From NCBI RefSeq assembly GCF_003334405.1, contig NZ_QOWM01000011.1: a DNA stretch of 64,000 nucleotides; one strand, written 5' to 3'. Position numbers and translations under genes: made by a program. The first letter of the stretch is position 1. The number at the start of each line of letters is the position of its first letter. Below the pieces are notes generated by a model. It had not been told where the DNA came from and did not search any database. It saw nothing but the letters and a program-made list of their open reading frames with translations. Source of the stretch: Escherichia coli. Its GTDB lineage: Bacteria; Pseudomonadota; Gammaproteobacteria; Enterobacterales; Enterobacteriaceae. Shown one piece after another: positions 9,525 to 13,269 of the stretch.

Positions 9525-10583
9525 TCATGCGGGGGTCTTTTGACGAGCTGCCGCGTCCTGGCGGGAGTGCTCAAGCAGGTTCTGCAAATAATGCAGCGTG
9601 ACTGCAGGGACCAGCGGCGCGATAGCCGTGAGATCGTTTTTCGCCAGCAGTTGACGTACCCGGGAAGCGGATATCGGCATCTCCTGGTAACGCAGCCGCT
9701 CAATTTCAACCAGTTCGATGGGCGGTGCGGAGATAGTCGGCGTTTCCAGCCAGTAGCGCATATCCTGGTTGTACTGGGCGGTAACGCGACAAAAGGGTTC
9801 AGTACCGACAAAGCGGTGAGTTACACCCAGCGCGGGAGCGAGGTACTGACGGAAAATCTTCAGATCAATTTCGGTGTAACAATGGTTAATGACGCTCTGT
9901 TCTTTAATGAAGTAGCAAGGGAACGTAGCGCGGGAGATGATGTATTCGGAGCCACGATGCACAGTCAGGCGTGGAATATCGGCGGTGCCTTTTAACACCA
10001 AATCCAGCCGGTCTTCATAGGGGAAGCGTGAAGAATCTTCTTTGACTAAAAACAGATGCAACCAGTCGCACTGTGCCGCAGCCTGTTGAATCAGATAACG
10101 GTGACCATTCGTAAAGGGATTGGCGTTCATCACAATGCAGCCAATCTTGTTCCCTGGATGACGAAATTTTTTCAGCGATTCGGCATAGCGTTTCAGTCGC
10201 GTGGCGCTGTTTTCCATCAGCACCATCACGCCGGGTACGCTGGTCAGCGTGGAAAAACCGCACTGGCGGAACAGCGCCTCGTATTCGGTTTTGGTATAAA
10301 TAAACAGATGCGTGCTGTGCCGCTCATAGGCGAGGTTTATCAATTCAGTGGCTAATGTCAGCGCCAGTCCTTCACCGCGGACGGATTCACTGATAGCAAC
10401 GCATTTAATAATATTTCCGGCAATTCCACCGCACGCGATAAGCTTTTCATCGCGGGTTACGGTAATAAATACTTCGACTGTGGTGTCAACGCTCAAATCA
10501 TTTTCATGCAGGAATTGGGCGATTTCCGCCATTTTTTTATTTTCTGAACGTTTTACGCGGGTGAAAATATCATTGCCGAACAT
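9525..10583 (-). CDS. citC: [Citrate (pro-3S)-lyase] ligase
   Basis: ORF 9525..10670; the internal start MFGNDIFTRV... gives about 352 aa, the length I remember; exact start uncertain. Confidence 0.8.
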   Translation of the reverse strand: MFGNDIFTRVKRSENKKMAEIAQFLHENDLSVDTTVEVFITVTRDEKLIACGGIAGNIIKCVAISESVRGEGLALTLATELINLAYERHSTHLFIYTKTEYEALFRQCGFSTLTSVPGVMVLMENSATRLKRYAESLKKFRHPGNKIGCIVMNANPFTNGHRYLIQQAAAQCDWLHLFLVKEDSSRFPYEDRLDLVLKGTADIPRLTVHRGSEYIISRATFPCYFIKEQSVINHCYTEIDLKIFRQYLAPALGVTHRFVGTEPFCRVTAQYNQDMRYWLETPTISAPPIELVEIERLRYQEMPISASRVRQLLAKNDLTAIAPLVPAVTLHYLQNLLEHSRQDAAARQKTPA

Positions 10584-10961
10584 AATAAATAGTATCCTGA
10601 AGGTGCATGTTGTTATCGATTTGCAACGAATGTTGTTCAATGTTGCAAACTGATAACCTTTTATTTTCACTTGGGAGAAAGGGGGTGATCGAGGTATATC
10701 TTTTTCTCCTTTCGCTATACATCCTAAGGAGTATTTCGGCGTGAAATTTTGATTTATTTCACATAGAGTTAGTGGTTTTTTATTTATTTAATGATTTTAA
10801 GTTTTTTAATTAATGTAATTACGAAATGACTCGCAGGTTTAAGTGATTTAATTGATTTAATGAATAAAATTTGCCACGATCATAATTAATATCTATGTAT
10901 TTTGATTCAACATTTTAATTACATCCGTCAAAGAGGCTCGGGACAACCCGCAAGGAAAACA

Positions 10962-12620
10962 ATGTTGCAGCTTAACGAGAATAAACAGTTTGCATTTTTC
11001 CAAAGACTGGCATTTCCGCTGCGTATCTTTTTGCTGATTCTGGTGTTCTCAATATTTGTCATTGCAGCCCTGGCGCAATATTTTACGGCCAGTTTTGAGG
11101 ACTATTTAACGCTTCATGTACGCGACATGGCAATGAATCAGGCGAAAATTATTGCCTCCAATGACAGTGTCATCTCTGCGGTGAAAACGCGTGACTACAA
11201 ACGGCTGGCGACCATCGCTAACAAATTACAAAGAGATACCGATTTTGATTATGTGGTGATTGGGGACCGGCACTCGATCCGCCTTTACCATCCTAATCCG
11301 GAGAAAATTGGTTATCCTATGCAGTTCACCAAACAGGGCGCGCTGGAGAAAGGGGAGAGCTACTTCATTACCGGGAAAGGGTCAATGGGGATGGCGATGC
11401 GCGCCAAAACGCCAATCTTTGATGACGATGGAAAAGTCATCGGCGTGGTGTCGATTGGCTACCTGGTGAGTAAAATCGATAGCTGGCGGGCTGAGTTTTT
11501 ATTACCGATGGCAGGTGTGTTTGTCGTGCTGTTAGGGATTCTGATGTTGCTGTCGTGGTTCCTGGCCGCGCATATCCGTCGGCAGATGATGGGCATGGAG
11601 CCAAAGCAAATCGCACGCGTGGTCCGTCAGCAAGAGGCGCTGTTTAGTTCGGTTTATGAAGGGCTGATTGCGGTGGATCCGCATGGTTACATTACCGCCA
11701 TCAATCGTAACGCAAGAAAGATGCTGGGGCTGAGTTCCCCCGGACGGCAATGGTTGGGTAAACCCATTGTTGAAGTGGTCAGGCCCGCCGATTTCTTTAC
11801 CGAACAGATTGATGAAAAACGTCAGGATGTGGTGGCGAACTTTAACGGTCTGAGCGTTATTGCCAACCGGGAAGCTATTCGTTCAGGTGATGATTTGCTG
11901 GGGGCCATTATCAGCTTTCGTAGTAAAGACGAAATTTCCACCCTCAATGCGCAACTGACGCAAATAAAACAATACGTTGAGAGCCTTCGTACATTGCGAC
12001 ACGAGCATCTCAATTGGATGTCGACGCTCAATGGTCTGTTGCAGATGAAAGAGTATGATCGCGTGCTGGCGATGGTGCAGGGGGAGTCTCAGGCCCAGCA
12101 ACAGCTTATTGACAGCCTGCGCGAGGCGTTTGCCGATCGCCAGGTGGCGGGGCTGCTTTTTGGTAAAGTGCAGCGCGCCCGGGAACTGGGGCTAAAAATG
12201 ATCATTGTCCCCGGTAGCCAGCTTTCGCAACTGCCGCCAGGACTGGATAGCACCGAGTTTGCAGCCATTGTGGGCAATTTACTTGATAACGCCTTCGAAG
12301 CCAGCCTGCGTAGCGATGAAGGAAACAAGATCGTTGAATTATTCCTCAGCGATGAAGGCGATGATGTGGTGATTGAAGTCGCCGATCAGGGCTGCGGCGT
12401 TCCAGAGTCTCTACGAGACAAAATATTTGAGCAGGGGGTCAGTACGCGTGCTGACGAGCCCGGTGAACATGGCATTGGGTTGTACTTGATTGCCAGCTAC
12501 GTAACGCGCTGCGGTGGTGTTATCACTCTCGAAGATAATGATCCCTGCGGTACCTTATTTTCAATCTATATTCCGAAAGTGAAACCTAATGACAGCTCCA
12601 TTAACCCTATTGATCGTTGA
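10962..12620 (+). CDS. dpiB: Sensor histidine kinase of the citrate-responsive two-component system
   Basis: ORF 10902..12620; start at MLQLNENKQF... (552 aa); two transmembrane segments flanking a periplasmic domain; HATPase motifs DQGCGVP and GIGLYL. Confidence 0.9.
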   Translation: MLQLNENKQFAFFQRLAFPLRIFLLILVFSIFVIAALAQYFTASFEDYLTLHVRDMAMNQAKIIASNDSVISAVKTRDYKRLATIANKLQRDTDFDYVVIGDRHSIRLYHPNPEKIGYPMQFTKQGALEKGESYFITGKGSMGMAMRAKTPIFDDDGKVIGVVSIGYLVSKIDSWRAEFLLPMAGVFVVLLGILMLLSWFLAAHIRRQMMGMEPKQIARVVRQQEALFSSVYEGLIAVDPHGYITAINRNARKMLGLSSPGRQWLGKPIVEVVRPADFFTEQIDEKRQDVVANFNGLSVIANREAIRSGDDLLGAIISFRSKDEISTLNAQLTQIKQYVESLRTLRHEHLNWMSTLNGLLQMKEYDRVLAMVQGESQAQQQLIDSLREAFADRQVAGLLFGKVQRARELGLKMIIVPGSQLSQLPPGLDSTEFAAIVGNLLDNAFEASLRSDEGNKIVELFLSDEGDDVVIEVADQGCGVPESLRDKIFEQGVSTRADEPGEHGIGLYLIASYVTRCGGVITLEDNDPCGTLFSIYIPKVKPNDSSINPIDR

Positions 12621-13269
12621 GGACGAAACGCCGCTGGCAGAGATGCATGCGGAATATATTCGTCACATTCCCGGATTCAGTCAGATATTACTGGCGGGAA
12701 ATCTGGCGCAGGCCCGAATGATGATCGAGCGTTTTAAGCCGGGGCTAATCTTGCTCGATAACTATCTTCCTGACGGTAGAGGGATTAATTTACTGCATGA
12801 ACTGGTGCAGGCGCATTATCCCGGCGACGTGGTGTTTACCACTGCAGCCAGCGATATGGAAACGGTGTCTGAAGCCGTACGTTGTGGTGTATTTGATTAT
12901 CTCATTAAGCCCATTGCCTATGAACGGCTGGGGCAAACGCTAACCCGTTTCCGCCAGCGTAAACATATGCTGGAAAGTATTGATAGCGCCAGCCAGAAGC
13001 AAATTGATGAGATGTTTAATGCTTATGCTCGCGGTGAACCTAAGGACGAGCTACCGACCGGCATTGACCCCTTGACGCTAAACGCGGTGCGAAAACTGTT
13101 TAAAGAGCCTGGTGTGCAACATACGGCAGAAACGGTGGCGCAGGCACTGACCATCAGCCGCACCACTGCCAGGCGTTATCTTGAATATTGCGCCAGCCGC
13201 CATCTGATTATTGCTGAAATTGTTCACGGCAAAGTTGGCAGACCACAACGCATATACCACAGTGGGTGA
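12589..13269 (+). CDS. dpiA: Response regulator (CitB family)
   Basis: 226-aa ORF with a receiver domain and C-terminal HTH; start overlaps the dpiB 3' end. Confidence 0.9.
   Translation: MTAPLTLLIVEDETPLAEMHAEYIRHIPGFSQILLAGNLAQARMMIERFKPGLILLDNYLPDGRGINLLHELVQAHYPGDVVFTTAASDMETVSEAVRCGVFDYLIKPIAYERLGQTLTRFRQRKHMLESIDSASQKQIDEMFNAYARGEPKDELPTGIDPLTLNAVRKLFKEPGVQHTAETVAQALTISRTTARRYLEYCASRHLIIAEIVHGKVGRPQRIYHSG

What the first reader, a model, noticed from the sequence alone, without database searches (positions are those of the whole stretch)
10584..10961. AT-rich divergent citC-citA control region with tandem direct repeats
The roughly 380-bp spacer between citC and citA is strongly AT-rich and contains tandem TGATTTAAT TGATTTAAT repeats (about 10843..10862) plus further TTTAAT/TTAATT iterations upstream. 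These are candidates for response-regulator (CitB/DpiA) or nucleoid-protein binding that controls both the citrate-lyase operon and the two-component genes.
Basis: partly seen in the sequence, partly recalled or inferred. Interest (0 to 1): 0.3.

Follow-up and report, generated by a model that had tools for sequence, protein, structure and literature searches.

The report
DpiA operator repeats between citC and dpiB
The AT-rich repeats are real and form part of a deeply conserved set of binding-site repeats for the citrate response regulator DpiA (CitB) between the E. coli citrate-lyase operon and its sensor genes, a control region that is already known, so the finding is correct but ordinary.

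Summary
Observation confirmed. The window is E. coli K-12 (100% identical to MG1655 over 10300-11300). Positions 10584-10961 are exactly the 378-bp citC/dpiB(citA) spacer, with 31% GC (23% in 10730-10930) against 51% for the window. TGATTTAAT occurs twice in tandem at 10844-10861.

On its own that 18-bp tandem is only marginal (about 5% of local shuffles). It is the E. coli form of a larger, clearly non-random design: two same-strand arrays of TTTAA pentamers spaced every 9 bp (10773-10818 and 10836-10862). No local shuffle in 5000 reproduces it, and it is unique in the 64-kb window.

The arrays keep position, phase and orientation upstream of citC in all 57 loci with a divergent two-component gene across Enterobacterales. 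Some loci without one, including Vibrio, carry a single box.

Beside the arrays lies an invariant CRP-type site, 22 bp from a conserved TAnnAT (predicted class II citC promoter), and a NarL-like 7-2-7 site.

From the literature: DpiA sites in this spacer are curated. Deleting the homologous segment in C. rodentium PcitC abolishes the citrate response. MaeR, a regulator of the same family, binds three tandem TTATT(A/T)AA repeats.

Verdict: DpiA/CitB operator, already known, low interest.

The parts
10584..10961 (.). citC-dpiB (citA) divergent intergenic control region, 378 bp, 31% GC
   Evidence: Present in 5420 of 5426 complete E. coli genomes.
10844..10861 (+). These are units 2 and 3 of array 2.
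   Evidence: 14 of 18 positions are invariant in Escherichia, Citrobacter and Salmonella. The first copy is TTTGTTTAAT or GTTGTTTAAT in other genera.
10836..10862 (+). Array 2 (dpiB-proximal): TTTAA at 10838, 10847 and 10856, period 9. Deep consensus GTGGTTTTTATTTGTTTAATTGATTTAATG. Predicted DpiA~P operator, probably serving dpiBA autoregulation.
   Evidence: 19 of 27 positions invariant. Two arrays appear only where a two-component gene is divergent from citC.
10773..10818 (+). Array 1 (citC-proximal): TGG TTTTA(10778) TTTAA(10787, 10796, 10805) TGTAA(10814), period 9. Contains TTATTTAA at 10784-10791. Predicted DpiA~P operator for PcitC, at about -58 to -104 of the predicted TSS.
   Evidence: 32 of 46 positions invariant. 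A homologous single box sits upstream of citC even in Vibrio.
10747..10764 (-). CRP-type site. In the citC direction it reads TGTGA-AATAAA-TCAAA (9 of 10 to TGTGA-N6-TCACA; 8 of 10 to the FNR consensus). Centre at 10755.5.
   Evidence: 17 of 18 positions invariant in 14 sequences. The TTGA..T..TTCA core is invariant in 18 taxa from four Enterobacterales families. No FNR ChIP peak is named at citC or dpiB. CRP involvement is stated in PMC12405535.
10721..10726 (-). Predicted citC -10 hexamer TAGGAT (TAnnAT in all aligned taxa), 22 nt from the CRP-type core. This places the site at -41.5 and the TSS near 10714-10716. Inference only; no TSS data were seen.
   Evidence: ungapped spacing conserved.
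10718..10733 (.). NarL-like 7-2-7 candidate TACATCC TA AGGAGTA, overlapping the predicted -10
   Evidence: 2 mismatches; not unusual in the window by count. 16 of 21 positions invariant at 10717-10737. Nitrate inhibition and NarL are reported in PMC12405535.
10866..10882 (+). Conserved block (A)AATCTGyAACGATC, AAATTTGCCACGATC in E. coli. Function unassigned.
10909..10925 (+). Conserved block AACATTTTwATTACA, 14 of 17 invariant, 37-53 bp before the dpiB ATG. Possibly the dpiB core promoter, but unassigned.
   Evidence: The simple promoter scan found nothing here.
9525..10583 (-). citC, [citrate (pro-3S)-lyase] ligase, first gene of citCDEFXGT
10962..12620 (+). dpiB (citA), citrate sensor histidine kinase
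12589..13269 (+). dpiA (citB), response regulator: REC domain plus HTH_64 (PF20714, DpiA-like HTH)

Best explanation
The tandem TGATTTAAT repeat belongs to the operator for the citrate response regulator DpiA (CitB).

The spacer holds two homologous arrays of about 28-45 bp. Each is three to five head-to-tail units centred on TTTAA and spaced 9 bp apart. Both point the same way, and their homologous registers are offset by 42 bp.

Proposed mechanism (inferred):
- Under anaerobic citrate, DpiB phosphorylates DpiA.
- DpiA~P dimerises or oligomerises, and its HTH_64 domains occupy successive units of the arrays.
- From array 1 (about -58 to -104) it activates the citC promoter together with a CRP-type activator bound at -41.5.
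- NarL can block the -10 region under nitrate.
- From array 2 (100-125 bp before the dpiB ATG) DpiA~P feeds back on dpiBA.
- H-NS/StpA probably keep the AT-rich region quiet when DpiA is inactive.

Shown here: the anatomy, its statistical non-randomness, and its deep conservation in position, phase and orientation.

Taken from the literature: DpiA sites exist in this spacer, and deleting the homologous segment kills the citrate response.

Inferred: which array serves which promoter, the TSS positions, and oligomeric head-to-tail binding.
For: Anatomy and statistics:
- TTTAA pairs at lag 9 occur 4 times, against 0 of 5000 local shuffles.
- All 4 hits of the triple pattern in 64 kb fall here, against 0.02 expected.
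- TTTAA occurs 7 times forward and 0 reverse.

Conservation:
- Arrays 1 and 2 have 32 of 46 and 19 of 27 invariant columns. The 17-bp inter-array spacer has 0 of 17.
- The arrays are recognisable in Hafnia, Buttiauxella, Atlantibacter, Edwardsiella, Providencia, Moellerella and Pragia.
- Single boxes lie upstream of citC in loci without divergent dpiB, including Vibrio.
- A weight matrix built only from non-Escherichia arrays puts the six best scores of the whole window (10.2-30.3) at 10766-10872. The next best score is 4.6.
- Across 78 citC loci there are 102 forward and 0 reverse clusters. All 57 loci with a divergent two-component gene have at least one cluster, and 39 have two. Of the 21 loci without one, 15 have none and none has two.

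Literature:
- EcoCyc lists DpiA sites in the MG1655 spacer. A C. rodentium PcitC construct that keeps only the DNA on the citC side of the equivalent of window 10775 loses citrate switching.
- RegulonDB curates 15 DpiA/CitB SELEX interactions from Yamamoto 2008.
- MaeR, a regulator of the same family, binds three tandem TTATT(A/T)AA repeats in a divergent spacer, and mutating them abolishes binding. TTATTTAA is present at 10784-10791, and TGATTTAA occurs twice in array 2.
- DpiA has REC and HTH_64 domains.
Against: - No DpiA footprint, ChIP or EMSA coordinates could be read. Yamamoto 2008/2009, Scheu 2012 and Meyer 1997/2001 are not held in the library. The assignment of DpiA to these exact bases therefore rests on conservation, one deletion experiment in a heterologous promoter, and analogy.
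- The weight matrix finds only weak matches at other reported DpiA targets: appY 8.0, exuT 4.5, mdh 1.7.
- The matrix and the pattern were derived partly from the loci they were then counted on, which makes circular for non-Escherichia loci.
- A 9-bp repeat does not keep successive units on one face of the DNA helix, which is unusual for response-regulator direct repeats.
- The predicted TSS and the -41.5 geometry are untested.
Confidence: 0.8

Rival explanations
1. The AT-rich repeats are mainly a nucleation or spreading platform for nucleoid proteins (H-NS/StpA). These silence both promoters through base composition rather than through a specific motif.
For: GC falls to 0.22-0.23 over about 150 bp. 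[quoted passage not shown]
Against: - Conservation is position-specific, includes G positions (TGG and TGA), and keeps a strict 9-bp register and a single orientation (102 forward, 0 reverse) across families, while the inter-array spacer drifts freely.
- There is no match to the H-NS high-affinity motif TCGATAAATT (at most 1 mismatch) in the spacer, and no IHF core consensus.
- No H-NS peak coordinates for this spacer turned up in the supplementary tables searched.

This is likely an added layer rather than the reason for the repeats.
Confidence: 0.1
2. Array 2, the reader's tandem, is the DcuR site reported to precede citAB. It links C4-dicarboxylate sensing to dpiBA levels and is not a DpiA site.
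For: - From memory, not readable here: the Scheu 2012 abstract states that citAB is preceded by a DcuR site bound by DcuR~P. Abo-Amer 2004 describes the DcuR motif as tandem (T/A)(A/T)(T/C)(A/T)AA, which ATTTAA and TTTTAA fit.
- DcuR is the closest paralogue of DpiA (135 bits to the DcuR model).
Against: - Array 2 is a homologue of array 1 (77% over 31 nt; same deep consensus).
- The matrix built from these arrays finds nothing in the dcuR-dcuB spacer (best score -3.4).
- The box accompanies citC even where no dcuSR-linked arrangement is evident.

The two readings are not exclusive, since paralogues could share the site.
Confidence: 0.08
3. The repeat is a chance or slippage product of low-complexity AT-rich DNA with no function of its own. 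It might be a length-variable tract.
For: The exact 9+9 tandem alone is matched in about 5% of dinucleotide-preserving shuffles. The first copy differs in Citrobacter, Salmonella and E. whittamii.
Against: - The phased pattern appears in 0 of 5000 shuffles and is conserved across families.
- No length change was seen in the E. coli genomes sampled. All ten listed matches of the 201-bp core span 201 bp or are truncated. 5372 of 5426 genomes carry at least 80% of it, and every matching record is at 90% identity or more.
Confidence: 0.02

Closest known systems
CitB-binding A+T-rich target sequences in the divergent citC/citS control region of Klebsiella pneumoniae (Meyer, Dimroth & Bott 1997; CRP co-regulation, Meyer 2001)
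   Same: - An orthologous regulator (CitB) and an AT-rich operator in a divergent spacer upstream of citC.
- Phospho-CitB and CRP-cAMP jointly activate transcription (PMC2735749).
- The layout found here is the same: arrays next to a CRP-type site.
   Different: - In Klebsiella the divergent partner is citS-oadGAB-citAB, not citA directly.
- The one Klebsiella-type locus fetched (L068) has no intergenic spacer upstream of citC and shows no array.
- The footprint coordinates could not be read, so base-level correspondence is untested.
MaeR operator in the maeP-maeK spacer of Lactobacillus casei (CitB-family regulator)
   Same: Three tandem direct repeats of TTATT(A/T)AA in a divergent spacer. 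Binding is enhanced by phosphorylation and abolished by mutating the repeats. E. coli array 1 contains TTATTTAA, and array 2 contains TGATTTAA twice.
   Different: It comes from a different phylum and responds to a different ligand (malate). The repeat spacing there is said to vary between species. E. coli has two arrays and a fixed 9-bp register.
DcuR sites at dcuB, frdA and dctA (tandem (T/A)(A/T)(T/C)(A/T)AA; Abo-Amer 2004, recalled from memory)
   Same: A paralogous regulator with the same domain family, recognising tandem AT-rich hexamers of the TTTTAA/ATTTAA type.
   Different: The three-unit, 9-bp-phased matrix from the cit arrays finds no comparable site in the dcuR-dcuB spacer.
DpiA binding to the AT-rich 13-mers of oriC and the pSC101 origin (Miller 2003, cited in PMC4285127)
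   Same: The same protein binding AT-rich repeats. From memory, the oriC R 13-mer GATCTATTTATTT shares TATTTATTT with array 1.
   Different: Those are replication-origin sites with no known role in initiation control, seen on DpiA overproduction. They are not a transcriptional operator.

Membership tests
DpiA/CitB operator of the cit control region | Lies in the spacer between citC and the citA/B (dpiB/A) genes | tested here: met
DpiA/CitB operator of the cit control region | Conserved in orthologous cit promoters in position and orientation | tested here: met
   All 57 loci with a divergent two-component gene carry it. 102 forward clusters, 0 reverse.
DpiA/CitB operator of the cit control region | Needed for citrate- and DpiA-dependent activation of PcitC | not testable with these tools
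   Literature only. The C. rodentium construct DTR305, which lacks everything on the dpiB side of the equivalent of window 10775, lost switching. The deletion removes about 185 bp, not the arrays alone.
DpiA/CitB operator of the cit control region | Protected or bound by phosphorylated DpiA in vitro or in vivo | not testable with these tools
   The primary papers are not held. EcoCyc and RegulonDB curate DpiA sites and interactions, but their coordinates were not seen.
CitB-family (HTH_64) tandem direct-repeat sites | At least two head-to-tail AT-rich repeats of the TTATT(A/T)AA or (T/A)(A/T)(T/C)(A/T)AA type | tested here: met
   MaeR consensus. The DcuR consensus is from memory only.
H-NS nucleation site | Extended AT-rich tract | tested here: met
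   (GC 0.22-0.30 over 10700-10950).
H-NS nucleation site | High-affinity motif TCGATAAATT | tested here: not met
   8 matches in the window at up to 1 mismatch, none in the spacer.
H-NS nucleation site | H-NS occupancy and derepression in hns mutants | tested here: inconclusive
   Table S11 of PMC3688515 suggests masking. No peak coordinates were found.
Class II CRP-dependent promoter (citC) | TGTGA-N6-TCACA-like site centred near -41.5 from the TSS | tested here: inconclusive
   The site matches 9 of 10 and is invariant. There are 22 nt to a conserved TAnnAT. No TSS data were available, and the bare pattern TTGA-N6-TCAC is not rare.
NarL 7-2-7 operator | Inverted TACYYMT heptamers separated by 2 bp | tested here: inconclusive
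   10718-10733 matches with 2 mismatches. The count in the window is not above chance. The site is conserved, but it overlaps the predicted -10.
Length-variable tandem repeat (contingency locus) | Copy-number variation between strains | tested here: not met
   sampled E. coli matches keep the same length.

The most novel reading that the evidence does not exclude
The 9-bp-phased TTTAA arrays may define a general recognition code for HTH_64 (CitB/DpiA-family) regulators. In this reading the regulators bind head-to-tail as oligomers on 9-bp direct repeats. One array next to a CRP site is the ancestral citC operator, conserved from Vibrio to Escherichia. A second, duplicated array was recruited wherever the two-component genes are transcribed divergently, giving autoregulation.

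This family-wide grammar, and the link between two arrays and a divergent two-component gene, may not have been spelled out. No solved structure covers the DNA-binding domain.
Probability: 0.25. Interest if true: 0.3.

Novelty: already known. Interest (0 to 1): 0.1.

Why it matters

The comparative dissection gives a base-level, testable map of the operator:
- two 9-bp-phased arrays;
- an invariant CRP-type site at a predicted -41.5;
- two further conserved blocks with no assigned function.

The map could help people who use PcitC/DpiAB as a citrate biosensor, or who study how CitB-family regulators read DNA.

Tried and rejected
- **Primary papers.** Yamamoto 2008/2009, Scheu 2012, Meyer 2001 and Miller 2003 are not held in the library, so footprint coordinates could not be checked.
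- **Promoter and terminator scan.** The simple sigma-70 and terminator scan of the spacer found nothing.
- **Rfam.** Only a meaningless sub-threshold hit.
- **RNA structure in the citC leader.** The 16-nt inverted repeat at 10612-10627/10642-10657 folds as a hairpin in E. coli. However, the leader is no more stable than shuffles (z = -1.04), and there is no consensus structure across 14 genera (0 pairs). A first attempt used wrong coordinates, covering citC coding sequence, and is void.
- **FNR at the TTGA-N6-TCAC site.** No FNR peak is named at citC or dpiB in wild type or in the hns stpA mutant, so CRP is preferred.
- **H-NS and IHF consensus motifs.** Neither occurs in the spacer.
- **Other reported DpiA or DcuR targets.** The array matrix gives only weak scores at appY, exuT, mdh and dcuB.
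- **Small ORFs.** None of 20 aa or more in the AT-rich core.
- **Copy-number variation of the tandem.** None seen in E. coli.

Full report
**What is there.**
The window is E. coli. Positions 10300-11300 are 100% identical to MG1655 (MG1655 coordinate = window + 641273). The same 751 bp is present in 5420 of 5426 complete E. coli genomes at 95-100% identity.

RefSeq annotation and NCBIfam equivalog models identify three genes:
- citC, 9525-10583, minus strand;
- dpiB (citA), 10962-12620, plus strand;
- dpiA (citB), 12589-13269, plus strand, with REC and HTH_64 domains.

The finding's coordinates, 10584-10961, are exactly the 378-bp divergent spacer. Its GC content is 0.312, falling to 0.234 in 10730-10930, against 0.506 for the window.

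TGATTTAAT occurs twice in perfect tandem at 10844-10861. TTTAAT occurs 5 times and TGATTT 4 times, all on the + strand.

**Is it more than chance?**
The exact 18-bp tandem alone is not impressive. A self-match at least that long at lag 6-15 occurs in 102 of 2000 dinucleotide-preserving shuffles of the spacer.

The tandem is the most regular part of a larger pattern. TTTAA pentamers recur every 9 bp in two blocks on the same strand:
- array 1: 10778 (TTTTA), 10787, 10796, 10805, 10814 (TGTAA);
- array 2: 10838, 10847, 10856.

Four TTTAA pairs at lag 9 never occurred in 5000 local shuffles, and the strand bias is 7 to 0. TTTAA-N4-TTTAA-N4-TTTAA (at most 1 mismatch) hits only here in the 64 kb, with 4 hits against 0.02 expected.

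The two blocks are homologous: 31 nt at 77% identity, offset by 42 bp. Because this pattern was chosen after looking, the real test is conservation.

**Conservation.**
A scan of one genome per species with CitC returned 80 loci. About 50 have dpiB divergent from citC, and the spacer length is usually 378-391 bp.

In Escherichia, Citrobacter and Salmonella (14 sequences) the spacer shows sharp phylogenetic footprints:

| Segment | Invariant columns |
|---|---|
| Array 1 | 32 of 46 |
| Array 2 | 19 of 27 |
| Inter-array spacer | 0 of 17 |
| 10883-10908 | 1 of 26 |

The first copy reads TTTGTTTAAT or GTTGTTTAAT outside E. coli. So what is conserved is the phased TTTAA unit, not the exact 9-mer.

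The arrays are still recognisable in Hafnia, Buttiauxella, Atlantibacter, Edwardsiella, Providencia, Moellerella and Pragia. Their consensus there is TTAATGGTTTTwAtTTnnTTAATTA and GTGGTTTTTATTTGTTTAATTGATTTAAT. Single boxes lie upstream of citC in loci without divergent dpiB, including Vibrio, for example TTAATGGTGTTAATTGATTTAA.

A weight matrix built only from non-Escherichia arrays places the six best scores of the whole E. coli window at 10766-10872 (10.2-30.3). The next best score is 4.6.

Across 78 loci the counts are as follows:
- There are 102 forward clusters and none in reverse.
- All 57 loci with a divergent two-component gene have at least one cluster, and 39 have two.
- Of the 21 loci without a divergent two-component gene, 15 have none and none has two.

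This count is partly circular for the training loci.

**Neighbouring elements.**
Directly on the citC side of array 1 lies TTGATTTATTTCACA (10749-10763). Its core is invariant in 18 taxa. In the citC direction it reads TGTGA-AATAAA-TCAAA, a 9 of 10 match to the CRP core and 8 of 10 to FNR.

Exactly 22 nt further on, with the spacing conserved without gaps, is a TAnnAT hexamer on the citC strand (TAGGAT, 10726-10721). That geometry puts the site at -41.5 and the TSS near 10714-10716, which is a class II activator-dependent promoter. This is inference; I found no TSS data.

FNR ChIP tables name no peak at citC or dpiB, even in an hns stpA mutant. A recent study attributes regulation of this promoter to DpiAB, NarL and cAMP-CRP. 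I therefore favour CRP.

TACATCC-TA-AGGAGTA (10718-10733) resembles a NarL 7-2-7 site over the predicted -10. It is conserved, but the count of such matches in the window is not above chance.

Two further conserved blocks remain unassigned: 10866-10882, and 10909-10925. The second lies 37-53 bp before the dpiB ATG.

**Link to DpiA.**
I could not read the primary footprint papers. The indirect evidence is consistent:
- RegulonDB curates 15 CitB/DpiA SELEX interactions from Yamamoto 2008.
- EcoCyc lists DpiA sites in this spacer. Robinson-type truncations of the C. rodentium PcitC sensor, designed from those sites, lost citrate switching in an E. coli host. The inactive construct kept only the DNA on the citC side of a primer that maps to window 10748-10775. 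It retained the CRP-type site and lost both arrays.
- MaeR, a CitB-family regulator, protects three tandem TTATT(A/T)AA repeats in a divergent spacer, and mutating them abolishes binding. Array 1 contains TTATTTAA (10784-10791), and array 2 contains TGATTTAA twice.
- From memory only, the DcuR motif is tandem (T/A)(A/T)(T/C)(A/T)AA.
- No solved structure covers the DpiA DNA-binding domain.

**Mechanism proposed.**
DpiB senses citrate and phosphorylates DpiA. DpiA~P then oligomerises head-to-tail on the 9-bp units. Array 1 (about -58 to -104) activates PcitC together with CRP at -41.5, and NarL occludes the -10 under nitrate. Array 2 (100-125 bp before the dpiB ATG) provides positive autoregulation of dpiBA.

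H-NS/StpA probably silence the AT-rich region in the absence of DpiA~P. [quoted passage not shown]

The anatomy and its conservation are shown here. DpiA dependence comes from the literature. The division of labour between the arrays, the TSSs and the binding mode are inferred.

**Rivals.**
- **Purely composition-driven nucleoid-protein binding.** This does not explain the position-specific, phase-specific and strand-specific conservation. The H-NS and IHF consensus motifs are also absent.
- **DcuR as the sole ligand of array 2.** This is possible but not favoured, because the array is a homologue of array 1 and the matrix finds nothing at dcuB.
- **Chance or slippage.** This is excluded by conservation and by the lack of length variation in E. 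coli.

**Verdict.**
This is a known, curated control region in the best-studied bacterium. It is already known and of low interest.

Noticed in passing
window 10348-10653 (+): A 101-aa GTG ORF lies antisense to the 5' end of citC and ends 70 bp inside the spacer. It is the published overlapping gene nog1 (PMC4683798).

A sigma-70 ChIP-seq peak at 650810 (Myers 2013) converts to about window 10314, close to the reported nog1 TSS 40 bp upstream of the GTG. The conversion assumes U00096.2 coordinates and a +777 shift.
   Followed up: partly
window about 11328 (inside dpiB): Myers 2013 lists a strong sigma-70 ChIP-seq peak at 651823/4, labelled 'within dpiB'. It is present both aerobically and anaerobically, and no peak lies in the spacer itself. 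The simple promoter scan of 11100-11550 found nothing. The coordinate conversion is assumed.
   Followed up: partly
window 10742-10749; locus L085: In E. coli strain Ecol_AZ155 an IS1 element is inserted after window 10749, with an 8-bp target duplication. The insertion sits at the edge of the CRP-type site, so it separates the predicted citC -10 from its activator sites.
   Followed up: partly
window about 10868; locus L084: One BL21(DE3) assembly (NZ_CP081489.1) has a rearrangement breakpoint just after array 2. It joins dpiB to the secE-nusG-rplKAJ region next to a truncated EF-Tu fragment. It could be a true inversion or an assembly artefact.
   Followed up: no
window 10612-10627 / 10642-10657: A 16-nt inverted repeat (88% complementary, 14 nt apart) lies in the predicted citC leader: GTTATCGATTTGCAAC / GTTGCAAACTGATAAC. 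Parts of it (GTTATCA, TTGC, CAACA) are conserved, but there is no conserved RNA structure across genera. It could be a protein site. Unexplained.
   Followed up: partly
window 10866-10882 and 10909-10925: Two conserved blocks sit between array 2 and the dpiB start: AATCTGyAACGATC and AACATTTTwATTACA. Neither matches a consensus I could assign. They are candidates for the dpiB core promoter or for a further regulator such as DcuR.
   Followed up: no
window about 10970 (MG1655 v2 651466): Ishihama's genomic SELEX lists an RpoS-holoenzyme 'constitutive promoter' peak in the citC/dpiB spacer, and a FliA-holoenzyme peak inside dpiB.
   Followed up: no
window 9525-10670 (-): An upstream in-frame GTG would extend citC to 381 aa. 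This is the older EHEC annotation, under which nog1 is 'completely embedded' in citC. RefSeq and the alignment support the 352-aa ATG start at 10583.
   Followed up: no
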